From Promethearchaeota archaeon (GTDB taxonomy: Archaea > Asgardarchaeota > Lokiarchaeia > Sigyniarchaeales > SOKP01), in assembly GCA_019058245.1 (NCBI GenBank), contig JAHPZJ010000015.1, forward strand, positions 1 to 64,000: 64,000 bases of DNA. The letters run 5' to 3'. Positions 3,686-14,517 of the stretch are shown piece after piece. The notes beneath the pieces are model-generated. The model ran no database searches and had not been told where the DNA came from. It worked only from the letters and a program-made list of their open reading frames with translations. Within the stretch, counting starts at the first letter, position 1, and each line of letters starts with the position of its first letter. A program made the position numbers and the translations under genes.

Positions 3686-4966
3686 ATGGAAGAATTCCGT
3701 TCAGATATTTCCGGTTTTTATAAATTATCATTTGAAGAACGTCAGCAAACTATCTCAAAAATTGTAAATCTAACTCACGATGAAATTAAGATTTTACAAA
3801 ATTTAGGATATTTTACGTCTAGTCAAATTACTAATTTCATTGAAAATGTTGTTGGGAGTTACCAATTACCATTTGGTTTAGCTTTCAACTTTAAAATCAA
3901 TAATAAAGATTATATTATACCCATGGTTATTGAAGAACCTTCAGTTGTAGCTGCTGCATCAAATGCAGCGAAATTCGCTAGAAAGCATGGAGGATTTCAA
4001 TCAGAAGAAGTGAAATCTGTAATGATTTCACAAATTCAAATAACTAATTTGCATGAAATTAATATCGCAAAAAAAGAAATTATTGATAATAAAGATCAAA
4101 TTTTACAAATTGCCAATGAACAGGATCCGTTTCTGAATGAATTAGGTGGTGGTGCAATTGACCTTGAAATTAGAGAATTGGATACTCGTAAGGGAAAAAT
4201 GTTGATTTTACATCTATTAGTTGATGTCTTGGATGCTATGGGTGCTAATGTTGTAAATACAATGGCTGAGGCGGTTACTCCCTTTATTGAAGAACTTACT
4301 AATGGAAAAATCTATCTTCGGATAGTATCAAACCTAGCTTCACACAGAATTGCAAAAAGTAAGGCTACTTTCGATCAAGATTTATTAGGTGGAGAAAAAG
4401 TTGTTGAAGGCATAATGAATGCATTTGAGTTTGCGGTAGCAGATCCTTTCAGGGCAACAACTCATAATAAAGGTATTATGAATGGAGTTATAGCATTAAC
4501 ATTAGCCACGGGAAATGATACACGTGCTATTGAAGCGGGAGCTCATGCTTATGCATCATTGAAGGGAAATTATTCACCATTAACTACCTTTGGAGTTGAT
4601 TCAGAAGGTAATTTAGTTGGGGAGATAGAAATTCCACTTGCTCTTGGTATTATTGGAGGGATGACTAAAATTCACCCTATGGCCCAGTTAGCTTTAAAAA
4701 TTTTAAATGTTAAAAGTGCTAATGAACTCTCTCAGGTTGGTGCGGCTCTTGGATTAGCCCAGAATGTTGCCGCATTAAGAGCTTTAGCGTCAGAAGGTAT
4801 CCAAGAAGGACATATGAAACTTCATGCTCGTAATATAGCAAAAGCAGCAGGTGCTTCTGATAAGTTGATTGAAGAAGTTGCAAAAAAGATGATAAAAGAT
4901 AAAAAAATTAGAATTGATTATGCAAAAGAAATTTTAAAAAAAATAAGCGACAATAAAAACCTTTAG
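3686..4966 (+). CDS. mvaA: HMG-CoA reductase, class II
   Basis: ENVVG, EEPSVVAA, DAMGAN, THNKGIMNG, GNDTRA and GHMKLH motifs. Confidence 0.95.
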   Translation: MEEFRSDISGFYKLSFEERQQTISKIVNLTHDEIKILQNLGYFTSSQITNFIENVVGSYQLPFGLAFNFKINNKDYIIPMVIEEPSVVAAASNAAKFARKHGGFQSEEVKSVMISQIQITNLHEINIAKKEIIDNKDQILQIANEQDPFLNELGGGAIDLEIRELDTRKGKMLILHLLVDVLDAMGANVVNTMAEAVTPFIEELTNGKIYLRIVSNLASHRIAKSKATFDQDLLGGEKVVEGIMNAFEFAVADPFRATTHNKGIMNGVIALTLATGNDTRAIEAGAHAYASLKGNYSPLTTFGVDSEGNLVGEIEIPLALGIIGGMTKIHPMAQLALKILNVKSANELSQVGAALGLAQNVAALRALASEGIQEGHMKLHARNIAKAAGASDKLIEEVAKKMIKDKKIRIDYAKEILKKISDNKNL

Positions 4967-5047
4967 TTTTATAATAAGTGGTTCTGTAACTCCTCTAAGA
5001 AAAACAACAATTGAAATTTATGTTATCAAGATAAAAATTAATAAGAG

Positions 5048-6358
5048 ATGAAAATTATGACATTTAGAGAATATATAAATCAGATTGAAAAGGAAGGAAA
5101 ACTCCGAAAGGTAGATATGGCAGTTTCTAAAAAATTAGAGATTTCTGGAATTTTGAAAGAAATTGAACCGACCCCAATATTATTTAATAATGTGAAAGAA
5201 TCAGATTTTCGAGTTGCTGGTAATGTCTTTTGTACAAAAGATGCAATTGCTACTTATTTTGGTATTAACCCTGCAGAAATTATACCGCTGCTTTCAAAAG
5301 CCATTAAAAATCATTCTGAACCAGAAGTAATTTCTAAGGCACCTTGTCAAGAGATTATCGAATCTAACATAGATTTAGATAAAATTCCTATATTATATCA
5401 TTGTGAAAGAGATGGAGGAAACTATATTAGTTCTGCGATAGTAGTCACAAGAGATCCAGACTATGGTCAAAATTTAGATTTTCACAGAGCAATGCAATTT
5501 TCAAAAAATAAATTCTCCGTTCGTGTAGTAAAGGGACGTCATTTTGATAAATTTTTAGAAAAAAATGGAGAATTAGACGTAGCTTTTTGTATAGGAAATA
5601 CGCCTAATATCTTAATCGCTGGAGCAACATCAGTAGAGATTGGTCTTAATGAATTACATATTGCCAATGCATTAGAACAAATTAAAGTAGTAAAAGCTAA
5701 TTCAGTCGATCTTTTAATACCTGCTGATGCAGAGTTTGTTCTAGAAGGGCGTATATATTTGGAGGATAAACATTCAGAGGGTCCTTTTGTTGATCTCACT
5801 GAAACATATGATACAATACGAGAAGAACCTATTTTTGAAGTAAAAAGAATTACTCATAGAAAGGATGCAATTTGGCAGGCGCTCCTCCCAGGTGCTCTTG
5901 AACATAAGATTTTGATGGGTATGCCTAGAGAACCTACTATTTTTAACAAAGTGAATGAACAGGGAGTTAAATGTTTGGATGTAAACATTAGTCCTGGTGG
6001 ATCTTCTTGGTTACATGCAATAGTACAAATTGATAAAAAATCAGAAGAAGATGGAAGAAAAGCAATAGAAGGAACCTTAGCTGGACATACAAGTTGTAAA
6101 CATGTTTTTATTGTAGATAAAGATATTAATATATATAATCCATTATCTGTTGAGTGGGCAATGGCAACTCGTTTTCAAGGAGATTCAAGAATGATTATTA
6201 AGGATAAGGAACCTGGGAGTAGTTTAGATCCTAGTGCTGAACCTGGAACAAAAATGACAACGAAAATTGGGTTTGATTTAACCAAACCACTTGTAGTCAA
6301 GGGAAAAAGTTTTGAAATTGCTGAATTTCCCAAAGTTGATATCAATAAATACTTTTAA
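5048..6358 (+). CDS. ubiD: UbiD-family decarboxylase, probable trans-anhydromevalonate phosphate decarboxylase (AMPD)
   Basis: DGGNYISS, AEFVLEG, EGPFVD, VEWAMATRFQ and SSLDPS motifs; adjacent to the AcnX subunit genes. Confidence 0.85.
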   Translation: MKIMTFREYINQIEKEGKLRKVDMAVSKKLEISGILKEIEPTPILFNNVKESDFRVAGNVFCTKDAIATYFGINPAEIIPLLSKAIKNHSEPEVISKAPCQEIIESNIDLDKIPILYHCERDGGNYISSAIVVTRDPDYGQNLDFHRAMQFSKNKFSVRVVKGRHFDKFLEKNGELDVAFCIGNTPNILIAGATSVEIGLNELHIANALEQIKVVKANSVDLLIPADAEFVLEGRIYLEDKHSEGPFVDLTETYDTIREEPIFEVKRITHRKDAIWQALLPGALEHKILMGMPREPTIFNKVNEQGVKCLDVNISPGGSSWLHAIVQIDKKSEEDGRKAIEGTLAGHTSCKHVFIVDKDINIYNPLSVEWAMATRFQGDSRMIIKDKEPGSSLDPSAEPGTKMTTKIGFDLTKPLVVKGKSFEIAEFPKVDINKYF

Positions 6359-6374
6359 GTGGAGGAAAGAAAAA

Positions 6375-7568
6375 ATGAAATTGACATTAGAAGAACAAGA
6401 TATGTTAGATGGTAAGTATGGAAATGCTACTCAGAAATCAGTGGAAATATTAATCACATTAGGAGATATATTTGATGCTGATGGTATGGTTGACGTGCAT
6501 GGAGTTCAAATAGCTGGAGTTTCATATGCTAATTTAGGAGAAGCTGGTTTGGAATTCTTAAGTGAAATGGCAGAGGATGGTAAAGTTAGAGTCTTAACAA
6601 CTTTGAATCCTGCAGGAATGGATCGAGAAAATTGGCAAGCTTTAGGGATTGATGAAGAATTTGCTAAAAATCAGAATCGAGCTATTGATGCCTTTGCAAA
6701 AATGGGTATAATTACTACTTGCTCTTGTACCCCTTATTTAATTGGGAATTCTCCACATTATGGGCAACATATTGCTTGGGCAGAAAGTAGTGCTGTTTGT
6801 TATGCTAATTCTGTTATTGGAGCTCGAACCAATCGTGAAGGAGGACCAAGTGCTTTAGCATCAGCTATTACTGGAAAAACACCAAAATATGGATATCACC
6901 TGGATGAGAATCGTCATGGGGAAGTTTTGGTAAAAGTAAATGCTGCAGTTAATGGTACAGATGAATTTGGAGTTTTGGGGAAAATAATTGGTGATAAATT
7001 GGTAGAATTAGGAAAGAAAATACCATATATTGAGGGTATACCTGAAGCAACAATTGAAGAACTCAAATCATTTTGTGCGTCTGTTGCAACATATGGCGGA
7101 ACAGCATTATTCCATATGGAGGGAATCACACCAGAATATAATAAATATCCTAAACCAGTTGATATTTCATTTGAAATTAGTCAAAGCGACCTTAATAAAA
7201 CTCGTTCTGAACTTATTGATGACGATCTTGAGATAGACTTTGTAAGTATAGGTTGCCCGCATGCTTCAATTTATGAGATTGAAAGAATTGCTAGTCTTTT
7301 AAAAGGAAAGAAAGTAAAGAAAGAATTTTGGATTACTACTGCCCGTCCCACAAAAAGAATCGCTGACGAAGCTGGATATTCAAAAATAATTGAGGAAGCA
7401 GGAGCGAAATTTGCAGCAGATACGTGTTGCGTCGTTGCTCCAATTAAGGGTCGTTTTAAAGGCATAATGGTAGACTCAGCGAAAGCATGTTATTATGGAC
7501 GCGCAAAAAATCAATTTAAAGTAAAAATTGGTCCAATTAAGGAATGTGTGGAGGAGGCTATAAAATGA
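6375..7568 (+). CDS. Aconitase X catalytic (large) subunit, probable phosphomevalonate dehydratase
   Basis: TCSCTPY, AWAESSA, NSVIGARTNREGGPSAL, IGCPHAS and DTCCVV motifs. Start moved to ATG 6375, which follows GGAGG. Confidence 0.88.
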   Translation: MKLTLEEQDMLDGKYGNATQKSVEILITLGDIFDADGMVDVHGVQIAGVSYANLGEAGLEFLSEMAEDGKVRVLTTLNPAGMDRENWQALGIDEEFAKNQNRAIDAFAKMGIITTCSCTPYLIGNSPHYGQHIAWAESSAVCYANSVIGARTNREGGPSALASAITGKTPKYGYHLDENRHGEVLVKVNAAVNGTDEFGVLGKIIGDKLVELGKKIPYIEGIPEATIEELKSFCASVATYGGTALFHMEGITPEYNKYPKPVDISFEISQSDLNKTRSELIDDDLEIDFVSIGCPHASIYEIERIASLLKGKKVKKEFWITTARPTKRIADEAGYSKIIEEAGAKFAADTCCVVAPIKGRFKGIMVDSAKACYYGRAKNQFKVKIGPIKECVEEAIK

Positions 7569-7957
7569 AGTTAGAAGGTAGAAAAATTTATAAAGGTACT
7601 GCTGAAGCAGAAGCCATAGTCACTAAAGATGGAATCTCTTTCTATGGTGGTGTTGATCCTGATACGGGAAAAGTAGTTGAAGTTGGACATGAACTTGAAG
7701 GTCAATCAATAGCAGGAAAAGTGTTTGTTTTTCCTACTGGCAAAGGATCAACAGTAGGATCATATACTATGTATAGGATGAAGAAGAATAATCTGGCTCC
7801 AGCAGCAATTGTTAATAAACAAATTGATACTATCATAGCCGTAGGTTGTATTATCAGCGAGATTCCTTGTGTGGATCAAATTAATACTAATGAAATAAAG
7901 ACTGGACAAAGACTTATTGTTAATGGTACAGAAGGAACAATAGAAATAATAGACTAG
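7565..7957 (+). CDS. Aconitase X swivel (small, DUF126) subunit, phosphomevalonate dehydratase
   Basis: ISFYGGVDPDTG and GKGSTVGSY motifs. ATG 7565 follows GGAGG and lies at the 3' end of the large-subunit gene. Confidence 0.88.
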   Translation: MKLEGRKIYKGTAEAEAIVTKDGISFYGGVDPDTGKVVEVGHELEGQSIAGKVFVFPTGKGSTVGSYTMYRMKKNNLAPAAIVNKQIDTIIAVGCIISEIPCVDQINTNEIKTGQRLIVNGTEGTIEIID

Positions 7958-8260
7958 TCTAATTTTGATATTAATGAAAGGTTCAGCAATAACTCATTCA
8001 AAGATAACGTTAATAAAATATTGGGGTCATTGGAATGAGGTATCCCCTGAACTAAATATACCTTTAAATGATAGTGTAAGTATAATGAAATATTGGTTTT
8101 CATAAAATTCTCAATTAAAATTCTATATTACAATTGAATTTTTTTTACTTCTTCTCCAACTTTTTAAATAAAGTAAAAAATTATCAAAATAAGTTATAGA
8201 ATAAGAAACTTAAAAAATTTGAATATTTACAAATTTTATTATATTACACGAGTATAATTG

Positions 8261-9236
8261 GTGAAAAATTTGGGTATTGGAAAAGGATACGGAAAGACCA
8301 TACTTTTTGGCGAAATTTAATTCTTAATTAAAGATTAAACGCAATCATTTTGTAGTTTATGGTCTTCCTGCAATAGCATCAGCATTAGGATCTTTTACGA
8401 CTGCGGAAGTTAACATAGTTGAGGGTAATGATTGGGATGTTAATGATAAAAGATTAGCAACACCCAGTTATAAAAAACAAAAATACAATGAGGCAATGGA
8501 ATCAATTAAAAATGTTATTAACTTTTTAAAAATTGATACAGACAAGCAAAAACTTGAGATAACGTTTGCAGGTGATTTAATTGCCGCTAGTGGTGTGGGT
8601 GCTTCAGCAGCTCAATGTACATCACTTTCTCGTGCATTAAATGATACATTTAATCTTAATTTAAATGATGAGAGAATTAATGAAGCTGCTTATGAAGGAG
8701 AGAAAGCTTATCATGGTACACCCTCAGGAATTGACAATACAGCTTCAACTTATGGGGGATTAATTTGGTTTGTTAAAAACCTATCTGGCGGTAAAAATAC
8801 TATGGAACTATTGCAATCACCAAAGAAGATGCCTTTAGTAATTTTAAACACAGGAATAACAGCGTCAACAACAGAAGTTGTAGCTGATGTTAGACGATTA
8901 AAAGAGGAATCTCCAGAAAAATTTGAAAAGATTTTCAACCAATATGAAAATTTAATAATAGAGGCAAAAAAAGCTTTACTTGAGGGAAATATAGTCAAGA
9001 CGGGTGAATTAATGAATCAAAATCATAAATTATTACAAGATATATCAGTTTCTGGAGAAATTAACGAAAAATTAGTCAAAATTGCCCTTCAAAATGGTGC
9101 CATAGGTGCTAAAATGACTGGAACGGGAAGAGGAGGATTAGTAATTGCTTTGGCTGAAACTAATAAAATACAAGATAAAATTGCCAAGGCTGCTGAAAAA
9201 GAAGGATATGATGCCTGGAAAACCATGATAGGATGA
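8261..9236 (+). CDS. mvk: Mevalonate kinase, split gene: join(8261..8314,8346..9236), 314 aa if spliced
   Basis: GTG 8261 gives MKNLGIGKGYGKTILFGE. From 8346, HFVVYGLPAIASALG... is in frame with the 8496 ORF (SGVGASAA, HGTPSGIDN, GAKMTGTGRGG). The ORF track shows only the 3' 246 aa. Confidence 0.9.
8315..8345 (+). other. Putative 31-nt bulge-helix-bulge-type intron in the mvk mRNA
   Basis: ATTTAATTCTTAATTAAAGATTAAACGCAAT interrupts GE|H. Central helix GGCG 8309-12/CGCA 8340-43; 3-nt bulges AA^A and AT^C; internal hairpin TTTAAT/ATTAAA; exon-exon stem AAGACCATA/TATGGTCTT. Confidence 0.75.
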
Positions 9237-9249
9237 GTGCGAGGAAAAA

Positions 9250-11142
9250 TTGAAAAACAACAATGAAATAATTCTGCTTAAATTAGGTGGAAGTTTATTA
9301 ACTGACAAGAATAGACCATTTTCCCTAAGGGAAGAAATTTTAGAAAAATGTGTTAATCAAATAATAGATAGTAAAAAATCAATTATATTAATTCACGGTG
9401 GTGGTTCATTTGGTCATCCTCTTGCTAAAAAATATAAAATATCTCAAGGTTTGAATAATTCTATTGAAGATCAAATCATAGGACTTTCAAAGACGCATGA
9501 TGCTATGAATCAATTGAATTCTATTATCATAAAAAAATTTCTTGAAAAAGAATGTCCCGCAATTTCAATTCAACCTTCAAGTATTTTTATACAAGATTTT
9601 AATGAAATTAGTATTAAATCAATAGAACCTATTGAAAAATTACTTGATCTTGGAGTAATACCAGTCCTTTATGGAGATATTCTTCTCAGTAAAGATTACT
9701 CTTTTTCAATTCTATCTGGAGATTACATTATTTTAAAATTATGCGAGAATATTAAAAATTTTAAGATCTCAAAAGTAATATTTGCAATTGAAGAAGATGG
9801 TATCTTTATTGATGAGAATAGTAATAAAAAATTAGCTTCGAAATTAACACTTAACGATTTATCTACGATAAAATTAGCGAAATTAGATCAAAAAATAGAT
9901 GTTACTGGAGGAATAAAAGGAAAATTAAAAGAAATTGAAAAAATCTTAAAATTAAATATACCTGTTCAAATTATTAACGGTATTAAAAATAAAAATATAT
10001 TCAAAGCTTTAACGAACCAATATATAGAATGTACTAATATTGAAATACCATTAAATAAATCAGATGAAAGTCAAATATACAATAGAAAAATTGAACATAT
10101 TAAGATACCTTTAGAACACAACGTTCAACACACAATTAACTATTTTGATGATATTACGCTGATTCATCATCCACTTCCAGAAATAGAATTAGAGGAAACT
10201 AATATTTCTGTTGAATTCTTTAAAAAACATATATCTGCTCCAATTTGTATTTCAGCAATCACAGGGGGTCACCAAGTATCTAAAGCTATCAATAATATTT
10301 TAGCAAATGCTGCAAAATCGGAAAACATCATACTAGGGATTGGGAGTCAGAGAATAGGTTTAGAAGATCCCTCTACAATTGAATCTTTCAGTATAGTTCG
10401 AGATGTAGCACCAAAAATTCCTATCATAGGGAATTTAGGTATTGGACAGGTATGTGATCCCAATTTTGATATTGATAATTTCAAAAAATGCATTGATATG
10501 ATTAAAGCAGATGTTATGGCTATACACTTTAATGCTTTACATGAACTTGTTCAAAAAGAGGGTAGCATTTCCTATAATAACTTTGAAGAAAGATTTAAAG
10601 AAATAAGAAAAAAACTGAATATACCAATTATTGCTAAAGAAGTTGGGTCAGGATTTAATAAAGAATTAGCTTTAAAGCTTGATTTATTAGGTTTTGATGG
10701 GTTTGATGTTGGTGGAGCAGGTGGTACTAGTTTTGCCGCAATTGAGTCATTACGTGATGACTATAGTAATGAAGTATATACGCGAAAAATTGCGGATACA
10801 TTCAGGGAATGGGGAATCCCAACACCAATTGCAATAATCTATGTAAGACAAGCTACCGAAAAACCCATAATAGCTACAGGGGGATTGCGGTCTGGAGTTG
10901 ATATTGCCAAATCTATCGTTTTAGGGGCGGATATTGGAGGTTTTGCGTTCAAATTCTTAAAATCGGCTTGGCAGGATTATAAAAGTAATTCCATGAATAA
11001 CACGATCAAGGAAATTAAAACTCTAAAGCATGAATTAAGATCTTCGATGTGGTTGATGAATATAGAAAATATTAACAAGCTTAAATGTAATAGTGAGAAA
11101 AGAATCTTAGTTGGGAAATTATATCAATGGCTAAATCAATAA
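9250..11142 (+). CDS. fni: Fusion of isopentenyl phosphate kinase and type 2 isopentenyl-diphosphate isomerase
   Basis: N-half: KLGGSLLTDK, HGGGSFGH, SGD, DVTGGI (IPK). C-half: RKIEHI, AITGG, GSQR, KEVG, GAGGT, ATGGLRSG (IDI-2). Confidence 0.92.
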   Translation: MKNNNEIILLKLGGSLLTDKNRPFSLREEILEKCVNQIIDSKKSIILIHGGGSFGHPLAKKYKISQGLNNSIEDQIIGLSKTHDAMNQLNSIIIKKFLEKECPAISIQPSSIFIQDFNEISIKSIEPIEKLLDLGVIPVLYGDILLSKDYSFSILSGDYIILKLCENIKNFKISKVIFAIEEDGIFIDENSNKKLASKLTLNDLSTIKLAKLDQKIDVTGGIKGKLKEIEKILKLNIPVQIINGIKNKNIFKALTNQYIECTNIEIPLNKSDESQIYNRKIEHIKIPLEHNVQHTINYFDDITLIHHPLPEIELEETNISVEFFKKHISAPICISAITGGHQVSKAINNILANAAKSENIILGIGSQRIGLEDPSTIESFSIVRDVAPKIPIIGNLGIGQVCDPNFDIDNFKKCIDMIKADVMAIHFNALHELVQKEGSISYNNFEERFKEIRKKLNIPIIAKEVGSGFNKELALKLDLLGFDGFDVGGAGGTSFAAIESLRDDYSNEVYTRKIADTFREWGIPTPIAIIYVRQATEKPIIATGGLRSGVDIAKSIVLGADIGGFAFKFLKSAWQDYKSNSMNNTIKEIKTLKHELRSSMWLMNIENINKLKCNSEKRILVGKLYQWLNQ

Positions 11143-11175
11143 ATCTTAAATGTTAAATTTCTACTATGAATAATA

Positions 11176-11571
11176 TTACTTAGAATCTGATGGTTTTTCT
11201 TCTAAAAAATCTTCAATCTCATTTATGAAATCAGAAAAACTACCAATTTTCCTTGTAATGTTTTTTAGTTTTTCACCATAAAGTTTAATGAATTTATCAG
11301 AGAGTTTTTTTAATTCTTTATTTACTTTTTTCTGTTTGAATTTTTTAGAAGAATTTGCTATAAATATCAACTCGTATTGCTTTATAATGGTGAATCTAGA
11401 ATTTTCTAATTCGAAATTTGACATACCGCCTTCAGCTAATTGTTCAGAAAACATGTTTAAAGCGCTCATCATTGCTCCAAAAAGTTGAGGAGATACCGCC
11501 TTATCAAATTCTCTATGAAAAATTGCAATTCCTGATTGCTCAAGAATCCAAATATCCTGAAATATTTTCAT
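11176..11571 (-). CDS. Stand-alone longin-like domain protein
   Basis: IWILEQSGIAIFHREF...LFGAMMSAL...LIFIANS...LSDKFIKLYG pattern typical of Asgard longin/roadblock-like proteins. Start likely ATG 11571. Confidence 0.65.
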   Translation of the reverse strand: MKIFQDIWILEQSGIAIFHREFDKAVSPQLFGAMMSALNMFSEQLAEGGMSNFELENSRFTIIKQYELIFIANSSKKFKQKKVNKELKKLSDKFIKLYGEKLKNITRKIGSFSDFINEIEDFLEEKPSDSK

Positions 11572-11740
11572 TTGAATTCCTCTTTCTCTCACTTTTATGC
11601 AAATTTTTCTAAATTTTAATAAACCGCTTCTATAAAAAATTATAGATCTTTTTATTTATTTTATGAAATAAATTTATTCTTTTTTAGATTTATAGTTTTT
11701 AATTCGTTATTTTTTGTTCTAATAATTTAATTAAAAGAGA

Positions 11741-12289
11741 TCATGAATTGCCCCATCTTTTAATATTGCTCTCAATACCTATCTGATCCAAAATTCTCCC
11801 TATTGTAAACTCAGTAAGTTCTTCTAAATTTTTAGGTTTAATATAATAAGAAGGAATAGGTGGAAAAATTATAACACCCAGTTTTGCTAATTTGAGCATA
11901 TTTTCCAAATGAATTACGCTAAAAGGAGTTTCACGTACTATAAGTATAAGTTTTCTCTGCTCTTTTATCATTACATCAGCAGCTCTTGTAATGAGATTAT
12001 TTGCATAACCATTTGCGATAGCAGAAAGAGTTTTCATTGAACAGGGAATTATTATCATGGAATCAAGTTTATAGGATCCACTCGCGGGAGGTGCTAATAG
12101 ATCATGTACTTCATAATTTTTATCAGCCAGTTTACGTACTTCTGATATATTATGATTAGTCTCAATTGAAACAATCTTTTCAGCATTTTTTGAAATAATT
12201 AATTCCGTTTTAATACCTTTCTTTTTAAGTATTTCAAGAAACCTAATTGCTAAATGAATTCCAGAGGTGCCAGTAACTGCAACTAACAT
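11741..12289 (-). CDS. ubiX: Flavin prenyltransferase UbiX
   Basis: VAVTGTSG, ASGS, PCSMKTL, NLITRAADV and RETP motifs; would supply prFMN to the UbiD enzyme. Confidence 0.93.
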   Translation of the reverse strand: MLVAVTGTSGIHLAIRFLEILKKKGIKTELIISKNAEKIVSIETNHNISEVRKLADKNYEVHDLLAPPASGSYKLDSMIIIPCSMKTLSAIANGYANNLITRAADVMIKEQRKLILIVRETPFSVIHLENMLKLAKLGVIIFPPIPSYYIKPKNLEELTEFTIGRILDQIGIESNIKRWGNS

Positions 12290-12478
12290 TTACCTAATTC
12301 TTGGAGTTTTTGATGAAGAATCAATTTTGATTTTAATAATTCAATTATGATTTCTAGTTCTTATTCTTTTTTAATTTAAAAGATAATAAGAATATTCCTT
12401 CAATTAGAGGTTTTTATTTAATTAGTTTATGATTTGATGTGATAAACATTTTAAGGAATATATTACAGGGATAAACGA

Positions 12479-12865
12479 TTATGTAGTATTAACTTGTTCT
12501 ATGAGATCAAAAATTTCATTAAAGTCATTTAAATCAAAAAGTTTTTTTAAATAACCATCTGCTCTCGTTTCAAGTGTCTTTATAGCAATTTCTGCTTCGG
12601 AAAGTCCTGTAAAATAATAAACCAATACATTTCTATATTTCTTTTTTTTCTTAAGAAATTTGCAAAATTCAAATCCATTTGAATCAGGCAGATAGACATC
12701 TAAAAATATTAATTTTGGTTTTTGTTTGATTAACTCTTCTTTTGCCTGTGAGATACACATAACAGCTTTAGAAGTATACCCTTTTGATTTTATAATTTGT
12801 TTTAATAACTTTATTATAAGCCTACTATCATCTACAATTAAAATATCATAATCTGAAAGAATAAT
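12479..12865 (-). CDS. Stand-alone response regulator receiver domain
   Basis: LIFLDVYLPDSNGFEFC. The frame extends upstream of the tracked ATG through DILIVDDS to ATT codons at 12862/12865. Confidence 0.8.
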   Translation of the reverse strand: MILSDYDILIVDDSRLIIKLLKQIIKSKGYTSKAVMCISQAKEELIKQKPKLIFLDVYLPDSNGFEFCKFLKKKKKYRNVLVYYFTGLSEAEIAIKTLETRADGYLKKLFDLNDFNEIFDLIEQVNTT

Positions 12866-13032
12866 TACCTGCCAACCCCGGATTTTTTACTTTACTAGTT
12901 GAGTTTTTCTAGTAACTATTTGCAAATTTTTAAAAAAAGTAAGATTATTTAAAGGTGGGTTTAAAAAAGAAATTACGTAATACTATCAAGAAATATTAAA
13001 ATCAGAAAAAATGTATTCTATTTTTTTAATAA

Positions 13033-14100
13033 TTAAAATTTTCTCTCAAATACAAAATTTAAAAGGTTTTCAAAGAATTCTAATTCCGATTCATTGATTT
13101 TCTTACTCAAATTATCGAGAGATAACTTTGCTTCATTAAAGTATGAATTTGCTAGGCTTTTACACGAATTAATAACATCAGCTTTAATGAATAAGTCTTT
13201 AATTTCTTGAACATTATCACTTGTCATATCTTTTTTTTCTATTAATTCTACTAGTCTATTCTTCTTAATTTTATCTAATTTATTTAAAGCTTCGATTAAT
13301 AAACATGTCTTTTTACCTTCTCTGATGTCGCCATCTGTTGGTTTTCCAGTTAATTTTTCATCGCCAAATGTTCCTAAGATATCGTCTATTATTTGAAAAA
13401 TGATACCAAGATTAATACCATAAATTGAAAGGTCTTTTAAAGACTTCTCATTAACCTTTGCATAATTTGCACCAATTAAAATCGATTTTTCAATTAAAGC
13501 TCCAGTTTTTAATGATATCATTTTAATATAATCTGATATTGTTAGATTTTTCTGATTAACCATATCTGTTTCAATTAAAACCCCGTTTGCAATCTCAATA
13601 AAAGCTTGCTTATAATAATCGACAGCTTTTAAATTAAGGTCTTTTTCAAACTCATTATAGAGATATGATTCTAATCCTAAGAAGTATGCAGAATCACCGC
13701 CTATAATACCTATTGAATTACCAAAATCAACATCAATCATTCTTTTCAAATTATATTTTTGATGATAATTTCTGAATCTGAAGTGAAAAGCAGGTTTACC
13801 TCTTCTAAAATCATCTTTATCGATTATATCATCATGAATTAGTGAAGCATTATGAAGAAACTCGACCCCTACGCTTGGTAATACAATTTCTCCATTTCGG
13901 TTTTCAGTAAAAGCATTATAAGTAGCTATACATAGCAATGGTCTAATTCTTTTTCCACCCGAAAGGAAATAATCTTTTAATTCAGAATAGTAATCTTTTA
14001 AGAAAGGATTTTCCACACTATTTAATTTCCTCTCATAAATTGATTTTATAGCATTATTAATCTTAGGAATATATTGTTTTGAATACTCAGAAAATTTCAT
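13033..14100 (-). CDS. Trans-prenyltransferase (GGPP/polyprenyl diphosphate synthase)
   Basis: GGKRIRP, first DDxxD (HDDIIDKDDFRRG), KTGAL, FQIIDDILG and DIREGKKT motifs. Start likely ATG 14100. Confidence 0.92.
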   Translation of the reverse strand: MKFSEYSKQYIPKINNAIKSIYERKLNSVENPFLKDYYSELKDYFLSGGKRIRPLLCIATYNAFTENRNGEIVLPSVGVEFLHNASLIHDDIIDKDDFRRGKPAFHFRFRNYHQKYNLKRMIDVDFGNSIGIIGGDSAYFLGLESYLYNEFEKDLNLKAVDYYKQAFIEIANGVLIETDMVNQKNLTISDYIKMISLKTGALIEKSILIGANYAKVNEKSLKDLSIYGINLGIIFQIIDDILGTFGDEKLTGKPTDGDIREGKKTCLLIEALNKLDKIKKNRLVELIEKKDMTSDNVQEIKDLFIKADVINSCKSLANSYFNEAKLSLDNLSKKINESELEFFENLLNFVFERKF

Positions 14101-14517
14101 AATATTACACATTCTCACTAAATTATGATATTTTATAATAGGTAAGTTATCTATTTTATTAAAATAATTAATGATTATCAAAAAATTATAATATTCCTTA
14201 TTTTCCTAATAAATAAAGCTGAAAATTTTATTTGCCTAGACTAAAATCAGTAAACCTATTTGATAAACTACTCACTTCATCCCTGAATACGATATTCTTT
14301 TGAAAAGATTCCATTTCCTGTAAGATATTATTTGATATTTAAATTGTTTATCAATATTTAAAGACTTAGTTTTACATTTTTATGGATTTTATAAAAGAAA
14401 GGATAAAACAAGACAAATAAATTTTAAGAATAATTTTTTAACTAAATTTTTAATTATAGAGTAAATAGATAAAAAAGTACTTTAAAAGAATTTTATTAAA
14501 AAAAATTATATAAAAAT

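What the first reader, a model, noticed from the sequence alone, without database searches (positions are those of the whole stretch)
8261..8370. Candidate bulge-helix-bulge intron inside a protein-coding gene (mevalonate kinase)
Seen in the sequence: the GHMP motif GKTILFGE-HFVVYG is split by exactly 31 nt (8315-8345), which add an in-frame TAA and shift the frame. Removing them gives GGC GAA CAT and a full 314-aa kinase. The junctions form an archaeal splicing motif: a 4-nt central helix GGCG(8309-12)/CGCA(8340-43) with three G-C pairs and one G.A pair, and 3-nt bulges AA^A and AU^C whose cut positions (after the 2nd nt) fall exactly at the boundaries the protein motif requires. The intron hairpin is UUUAAU/AUUAAA plus CUU/AAG. 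A 9-bp exon-exon helix AAGACCAUA(8294-8302)/UAUGGUCUU(8358-66) lies beyond an internal loop, so this is a relaxed BHB/BHL form. Established knowledge: archaeal EndA/RtcB splice BHB introns from tRNA and rRNA, and mRNA examples are very rare (crenarchaeal cbf5 is the classic case). Inference: this is mRNA splicing of a core lipid-biosynthesis gene in an Asgard archaeon, which automated annotation would report as a truncated or pseudogenised mvk.
Basis: partly seen in the sequence, partly recalled or inferred. Interest (0 to 1): 0.95.

Follow-up and report, generated by a model that had tools for sequence, protein, structure and literature searches.

The report
tRNA-type mini-intron in Asgard mevalonate kinase
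The mevalonate kinase gene of this Loki-type Asgard archaeon is broken inside its active-site motif by a 31-base hairpin shaped like a tRNA intron; comparison with 90 related genomes indicates that the mRNA is cut and rejoined by the tRNA-splicing enzymes, which the papers I could search show for the coding part of only one other archaeal gene (cbf5).

Summary
Observation confirmed. Removing 8315-8345 is the only excision of 25-39 nt that restores the conserved GE|HF motif. Of 91 genomes of this Promethearchaeota (Lokiarchaeia) family, 56 carry a 28/30/31-nt insert at exactly this site and 35 lack it cleanly. Every insert examined puts a stop in the exon-1 frame. The insert-bearing genes stay under purifying selection (dN/dS 0.12 vs 0.10) and are each genome's only mevalonate kinase above the family cut-off. 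The central helix and intron stem covary, and the exon-exon helix is kept at synonymous sites only in intron-bearing alleles. The genome encodes RtcB and two EndA subunits; the catalytic one keeps the loop lysine needed for relaxed motifs. The motif is relaxed (HBh'/BHL), not strict. A second insert of the same type, in ahcY, was confirmed by comparison. No RNA run was available, so splicing is inferred (about 90%), not seen. The likelier start is TTG 8270 (311 aa). The scan has already reported this same mvk intron, and similar ones in other genes, on other Asgard genomes.

The parts
8260..8264 (+). Shine-Dalgarno-like GGTGA (overlaps the in-frame GTG 8261-63) upstream of the likely TTG start at 8270
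   Evidence: TTG 8270 aligns with the ATG of orthologues (inference)
8270..8314 (+). mvk exon 1 (15 codons from TTG 8270; 18 from GTG 8261), ending ...GKTILFGE
   Evidence: exon 2 alone matches TIGR00549 only from profile position 11
8315..8345 (+). 31-nt relaxed bulge-helix-bulge (HBh'/BHL) intron; in-frame TAA 8318-20; hairpin 8316-8339
8309..8312 (+). Central helix, exon strand (GGCG), followed by the 5' bulge 8313-8315 (cut after 8314)
   Evidence: three inner pairs kept in 40/40 orthologues
8340..8343 (+). Central helix, intron strand (CGCA), followed by the 3' bulge 8344-8346 (cut after 8345)
   Evidence: C-G to U-A double change in 2 of 40 loci, plus G105 and G142
8291..8302 (+). 5' arm of the outer exon-exon helix (8294-8302, extended by G8291-G8292)
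8358..8368 (+). 3' arm of the outer exon-exon helix (8358-8366, extended by C8367-C8368)
8346..9236 (+). mvk exon 2 (296 codons plus stop), starting HFVVYG
   Evidence: TIGR00549 211.5 bits (cut-off 163); best PDB match 2hfs mevalonate kinase, E 4.9e-66
7958..8259 (+). AT-rich spacer between the AcnX small-subunit gene and mvk; seen almost only with intron-bearing alleles
3686..14181 (.). Context: intact mevalonate/isoprenoid cluster (HMG-CoA reductase, UbiD, AcnX large and small subunits, mvk, IPK-IDI2 fusion, UbiX-type flavoprotein, polyprenyl synthase)

Best explanation
The 31-nt insert is an intron in the mevalonate kinase pre-mRNA, removed by the archaeal tRNA-splicing machinery. Shown in sequence and by comparison: the flanking exons form an outer helix that brings the two junctions together, and the insert folds as a hairpin whose 3' end pairs with the last exon-1 bases. 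This gives a relaxed BHB with a 3-bp (in some relatives 4-bp) central helix and 3-nt bulges. Inferred: the (alpha-beta)2 EndA cuts after the second nucleotide of each bulge (after 8314 and 8345), RtcB joins the exons to give GAA|CAU, and a 311-aa kinase is translated. Unspliced RNA gives only a 16-aa peptide (from TTG 8270) or a 246-aa N-truncated product lacking the GKxILFGEH motif. History (inferred): one origin in this family's mvk lineage, then repeated loss and lateral allele exchange. It is probably a tolerated passenger that forces the flanking codons to keep the helix, not a dedicated switch.
For: Unique excision restoring GEHF. Same-site insert in 56 of 91 family genomes across 5 genera, lengths 31 (51), 30 (4) and 28 (1), with clean absence in 35. 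All 40 inserts examined give an early stop in the exon-1 frame, including the in-frame 30-nt ones. dN/dS 0.122 with the intron vs 0.104 without; no stops in any spliced CDS. One mvk above cut-off per genome, including intron-bearing genomes that are 99-100% complete. Central helix inner pairs 40/40 with compensatory changes. Whole structure: 89% of cells paired vs 42-44% when slid, 25 double-change cells vs 11.3 in shuffles (0/500). The exon-exon helix follows the intron: at least 4 of 5 variable pairs are kept in 39/40 intron alleles vs 1/38 intron-less, and about 6 of 6 independent pairs agree, sign test median p 0.031. Flank divergence is half that of intron-less pairs (0.093 vs 0.192). EndA alpha and beta plus RtcB are present. 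The alpha subunit keeps the Lys aligned with K44 of 3p1z_B, the residue that confers relaxed-motif cleavage (PMC6379350). A second gene, ahcY, has a 32-nt insert of the same layout in 2 of 39 genus genomes and is precisely intron-less in 37.
Against: No spliced RNA was seen. The motif is relaxed: G.A in the central helix in 28/40 loci and only one exon pair next to the 3' bulge. A competing exon-exon fold is about as stable (P about 0.5 vs 0.3 at 37 C), and RNAalifold's consensus picks it, although with no double-sided changes. A motif-first genome scan shows no enrichment over its control. Related sequences can beat the covariation shuffles without structure, so the 0/500 is not a p-value.
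Confidence: 0.9

Rival explanations
1. Translational bypassing (ribosome hopping as in T4 gene 60 or fungal mitochondrial byps): the ribosome slides over the hairpin without RNA cutting.
For: Short hairpin insert, often with a stop soon after the last exon-1 codon; lengths of 28, 30 and 31 nt would all be tolerated.
Against: The take-off codon GAA never matches the last insert triplet (AAT 24, TAT 6, AAA 4, TAA 3, TAG 2, CAA 1), and the GGC/CGC register would land before a stop in 5 of 40. Pairing between exon 1 and the insert's 3' end, and the exon-exon helix, are what splicing needs, not bypassing.
Confidence: 0.04
2. Pseudogene, or a gene expressed only as the N-truncated 246-aa ORF from ATG 8496.
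For: The longest ORF in the DNA starts at 8496; G000 is only 76% complete, so another copy could be missing.
Against: dN/dS 0.12 over the whole spliced gene; exon-1 motif GKTILFGE unchanged in all 40 intron-bearing alleles; no other mvk above cut-off in complete intron-bearing genomes; intact operon.
Confidence: 0.02
3. Removal at the RNA level, but by another enzyme or by self-splicing rather than EndA/RtcB.
For: The relaxed motif is only marginally stable in silico.
Against: Too short for group I or II introns, no Rfam match; both boundaries follow the EndA rule of cutting after the second bulge nucleotide; a relaxed-specificity EndA is present.
Confidence: 0.03
4. Assembly or sequencing artefact.
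For: The genome is a metagenome assembly.
Against: The insert is in contigs with 0 differences from runs X1, X3 and X5, two studies, two of them possibly the source, and divergent versions occur in 55 other genomes.
Confidence: 0.005

Closest known systems
BHB intron in cbf5 pre-mRNA of Sulfolobales and Desulfurococcales (Watanabe 2002; Yoshinari 2006; Yokobori 2009, PMC2738675)
   Same: [quoted passage not shown]
   Different: Different gene (lipid-pathway kinase) and phylum (Promethearchaeota); far patchier (at least 7 forced changes on the tree, with a recombination tract); not the only such gene in the genome (ahcY too); splicing not yet shown by cDNA.
BHB intron in the 5' UTR of Haloferax volcanii HVO_1309 (Schwarz 2020, PMC7714728)
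   Same: mRNA substrate of the splicing endonuclease.
   Different: Lies in an untranslated region and does not break a reading frame; different host group.
Non-canonical BHB introns of Asgard tRNA genes (PMC11291895; bioRxiv 10.64898/2026.10.13.758758)
   Same: Asgard hosts, repeated gains at sites that can form a BHB, and two EndA paralogues consistent with (alpha-beta)2.
   Different: Those are in tRNAs; the preprint does not mention mRNA (0 occurrences), and its intron-rich focal families are not Lokiarchaeia.

Membership tests
Strict BHB (hBHBh') intron | 4-bp central helix | tested here: not met
   3 of 4 pairs here (G8309.A8343); the fourth pair forms in only 12 of 40 orthologues
Strict BHB (hBHBh') intron | Exon helix h of several pairs directly closing the 3' bulge | tested here: not met
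   One pair only (U-A in 40/40 vs 11/38 intron-less); the long exon helix lies beyond a 5x10 internal loop
Relaxed BHB (HBh'/BHL) EndA intron, cbf5 type | Central helix plus 3-nt bulge closed by an intron helix h' | tested here: met
   Inner three H pairs 40/40; first intron pairs 39, 38 and 37 of 40; covariation
Relaxed BHB (HBh'/BHL) EndA intron, cbf5 type | Cuts after the 2nd nt of each bulge coincide with homology-defined boundaries | tested here: met
   Unique excision; 35 genomes lack exactly this stretch
Relaxed BHB (HBh'/BHL) EndA intron, cbf5 type | Host encodes a broad-specificity (alpha-beta)2 EndA with CSL-type Lys, and RtcB | tested here: met
   Two EndA genes, one with the catalytic His and a Lys aligned to K44 of 3p1z_B, one lacking the His; RtcB at 566 bits. 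Activity not tested.
Relaxed BHB (HBh'/BHL) EndA intron, cbf5 type | Spliced mRNA or excised (circular) intron detected | not testable with these tools
   No RNA holder listed
Relaxed BHB (HBh'/BHL) EndA intron, cbf5 type | Cleavage by EndA in vitro | not testable with these tools
   Bench experiment
Group I / group II self-splicing intron | Catalytic core of 100 nt or more, Rfam match | tested here: not met
   31 nt; no Rfam match at E<=1
Translational bypass element (T4 gene 60, byps) | Matching take-off and landing codons | tested here: not met
   0 of 40 match
Mevalonate kinase (TIGR00549) | Score above the curated cut-off, N-terminal GKxILFGEH motif | tested here: met
   211.5 bits vs cut-off 163 for exon 2 alone; motif complete after splicing

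The most novel reading that the evidence does not exclude
In Lokiarchaeia, tRNA-type endonuclease splicing is a routine step of mRNA maturation for several essential genes. Micro-introns of about 30 nt are gained, lost and exchanged between species by recombination, and they constrain exon codons. This would be a non-spliceosomal mRNA intron system in close prokaryotic relatives of eukaryotes, resembling IRE1/RtcB splicing of HAC1/XBP1, and possibly tunable through the competing fold.
Probability: 0.7. Interest if true: 0.88.

Novelty: new variant of a known kind. Interest (0 to 1): 0.78.

Why it matters
In the papers I could search, archaeal endonuclease splicing of a coding sequence is shown only for cbf5. 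Here a core lipid-pathway enzyme of an Asgard archaeon appears to depend on it, in more than half of a whole family, and a second gene (ahcY) has an insert of the same type. This bears on whether introns in protein-coding genes predate eukaryotes in the Asgard lineage. It also means that metabolic reconstructions of Lokiarchaeia will misread such genes as truncated. It is directly testable: one RT-PCR junction, or one in vitro EndA assay on an 80-nt transcript, with natural intron-less alleles as controls.

Tried and rejected
(1) RNA evidence: no RNA holder listed, so no evidence either way. DNA contigs show no joint skipping 8315-8345; the intron-less contig in run X1 is a divergent relative. 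(2) Motif-first genome census: a relaxed BHB plus frame-restoration scan gave about equal counts to a mirror-geometry control (66,326 vs 65,841 raw; 31 vs 25 after filters at 26-36 nt). It recovered mvk and ahcY but cannot give a count of introns. (3) The idea that the intron entered a pre-existing hairpin was rejected: intron-less alleles have no excess pairing across the junction (median percentile 0.54), whereas spliced intron-bearing alleles do (24/24 at or above 0.9). (4) Copying from elsewhere in the genome: no second copy within 6 mismatches. (5) Comparison with this genome's tRNA introns failed because ARAGORN returned only 14 doubtful genes. (6) RNAalifold did not recover the BHB. (7) No Rfam match and no informative promoter or terminator hit. 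(8) Ten literature searches found no paper on BHB introns in Asgard protein-coding genes; the library lacks most subscription journals. (9) A dedicated regulatory switch for lipid synthesis was not supported by anything tested; intron-less alleles sit in the same operon.

Full report
Observation. The sequence is as described. From TTG 8270 (or GTG 8261) the frame reads ...GKTILFGE and then meets TAA at 8318. The rest of the kinase, HFVVYG onward, starts at 8346 in another frame and runs 296 codons to 9236. Of all frame-restoring deletions of 25-39 nt in the region, only 8315-8345 gives GEHF. Exon 2 alone scores 211.5 bits against TIGR00549 mevalonate kinase (cut-off 163) but only from profile position 11. 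Its best PDB match is mevalonate kinase 2hfs from residue 28. Exon 1 therefore supplies the N-terminal motif, whose Lys, Glu and His are substrate-binding residues in this family (my own knowledge). An ORF caller finds only a 246-aa product from ATG 8496. The gene lies in an otherwise intact mevalonate cluster. TTG 8270 aligns with the ATG of orthologues and has GGTGA upstream, so 311 aa is the likelier length.

Host and distribution. Most of the nearest public records are titled Promethearchaeota. A pattern search of 135 genomes of the same family found the site in 91: 56 carry an insert (31 nt in 51, 30 nt in 4, 28 nt in 1; five of six genera) and 35 are continuous at exactly this point. Outside the family one genome matched, without an insert. 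Among 82 distinct full-length loci, 40 have the insert and 42 do not. Contigs with no differences carry it in runs from two studies, although two of the three runs may be the source of this DNA. With 55 other genomes, an assembly error is excluded.

The gene is alive. All 40 inserts produce a stop in the exon-1 frame within 8 codons, including the three in-frame 30-nt ones, so neither read-through nor one fixed frameshift can explain them. After excision no CDS has a stop. Median pairwise dN/dS is 0.122 among intron-bearing alleles and 0.104 among Loki-like intron-less ones, at dS above 1. Each genus genome has at most one TIGR00549 match above cut-off. In intron-bearing genomes that are 99-100% complete (G024, G005, G096, G103) it is the interrupted copy. 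G000 itself is 76% complete and has one match.

The structure is selected. The three inner pairs of the central helix are kept in 40/40 loci, with C-G changing to U-A in two and to U-G in one. The outer position is G.A in 28, G-U in 11 and G-C in 1. The 5' bulge is AA^A in 36 of 40, and the first intron-stem pairs hold in 37-39 of 40. On the 36-sequence alignment, 89.3% of cells pair against 42-44% when the partner is slid, and 25 cells show double changes against 11.3 in shuffles; kinship can inflate this. The exons are constrained too. At five variable positions of the exon-exon pairing, 39 of 40 intron alleles keep four or five pairs, against 1 of 38 intron-less alleles. On starred branches about 6 of 6 independent pairs go the same way (sign test, median p 0.031). 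At equal divergence elsewhere in the gene, the 21 nt on each side differ at 0.093 per site between intron alleles and 0.192 between intron-less ones. The motif is relaxed, because only one exon pair closes the 3' bulge. In silico the BHB state has a probability of about 0.3 against about 0.5 for a competing exon-exon fold inside the same outer helix, and RNAalifold picks the latter without any compensatory change. I count this as a real but modest weakness, since enzyme binding could select a near-isoenergetic state (inference).

Machinery. G000 encodes RtcB and two EndA subunits. The 197-aa subunit is most like 3p1z_B (E 4e-35; Aeropyrum pernix by my own knowledge). It keeps the catalytic His and has a Lys aligned with K44. 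The 200-aa subunit lacks the His and is presumably structural. PMC6379350 reports that (alpha-beta)2 enzymes with this loop lysine cleave relaxed motifs.

History. On an exon-2 tree that leaves out the junction flanks, intron presence needs 14 changes, at least 7 of them forced by well-supported branches. The shared site, length and ends point to one origin; the deepest family branch (L104) has the intron and the outgroups do not. Direction on single branches cannot be read from these counts. One sister pair, L067 with and L101 without, differs at 56 of the first 225 nt and at only 25 of the next 699, which marks a recombination tract over the 5' end (breakpoint chosen as the best of a scan). 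So allele exchange between species explains part of the patchiness, and precise loss followed by drift may explain the rest. Intron-less alleles show no pre-existing hairpin at the site.

Beyond this gene. My motif-first census could not separate signal from control, so I give no genome-wide count. The scan has reported this same mvk intron on other genomes (e1-5562454, e1-4761705) and similar introns in many Asgard genes, two with claimed RNA support (e1-5583151, e1-5425387). These are unchecked AI notes, and I do not count them as evidence.

Comparison and verdict. It works like the cbf5 pre-mRNA intron of Crenarchaeota (PMC2738675) and meets the testable criteria of a relaxed BHB intron, but not those of a strict one. 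PMC7714728 names cbf5 as the only earlier mRNA example and adds a 5' UTR intron in Haloferax. Asgard tRNA introns are documented, but ten searches found no paper on Asgard mRNA introns. Bypassing fails on codon matching; the pseudogene and artefact readings fail as above. Splicing by EndA/RtcB is my best explanation at about 0.9, inferred rather than observed. Novelty: new variant of a known kind. Interest 0.78.

Noticed in passing
G000:C10:121063-121094 (- strand): 32-nt insert of the same layout in ahcY between GHFDIE and IP; shared with G108, absent precisely in 37 genus genomes.
   Followed up: yes
L038, L046, L048, L050, L060, L065, L067, L068, first codon of mvk: The start position reads ACG directly after the stop of the upstream AcnX small-subunit gene, where others have ATG, GTG or TTG: a candidate non-canonical ACG start kept in 8 genomes.
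   Followed up: partly
window 7958-8259: A long AT-rich spacer before mvk occurs in 19 of 40 intron-bearing alleles but 1 of 38 intron-less ones (counted by eye), including alleles far apart on the exon-2 tree; the spacer, exon 1 and intron may move as one block.
   Followed up: partly
L078, L081, L086, L087, L089, L090, L092, L097, L103, L108: A clade of Bathyarchaeia-labelled mvk genes (one labelled Nitrosopumilales) nests inside the Lokiarchaeia alleles, all intron-less and with the same upstream gene end: probable operon transfer.
   Followed up: no
L067 vs L101, first 225 nt of mvk: Clear inter-species recombination tract that covers the intron site.
   Followed up: yes
window 9250-11142: Isopentenyl phosphate kinase fused to type 2 IPP isomerase in one 630-aa ORF.
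   Followed up: no
window 8310-8314 with 8349-8353: Competing exon-exon pairing that blocks the central helix and is about as stable as the BHB fold; could make splicing inefficient or temperature-sensitive.
   Followed up: partly
G000, whole genome: ARAGORN finds only 14, mostly doubtful, tRNA genes in 3.09 Mb, as expected if most tRNAs carry several non-canonical introns.
   Followed up: no
L075: A record titled Nanopelagicaceae bacterium carries a Loki-type mvk with the intron; probably a mis-binned or mislabelled contig.
   Followed up: no
e.g. G019:C65:45213-46043, G009:C201:1296-2126: Many genus genomes have a second mvk-like GHMP kinase just under the TIGR00549 cut-off (137-158 bits), with or without the intron in the main copy; absent from G000.
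   Followed up: no
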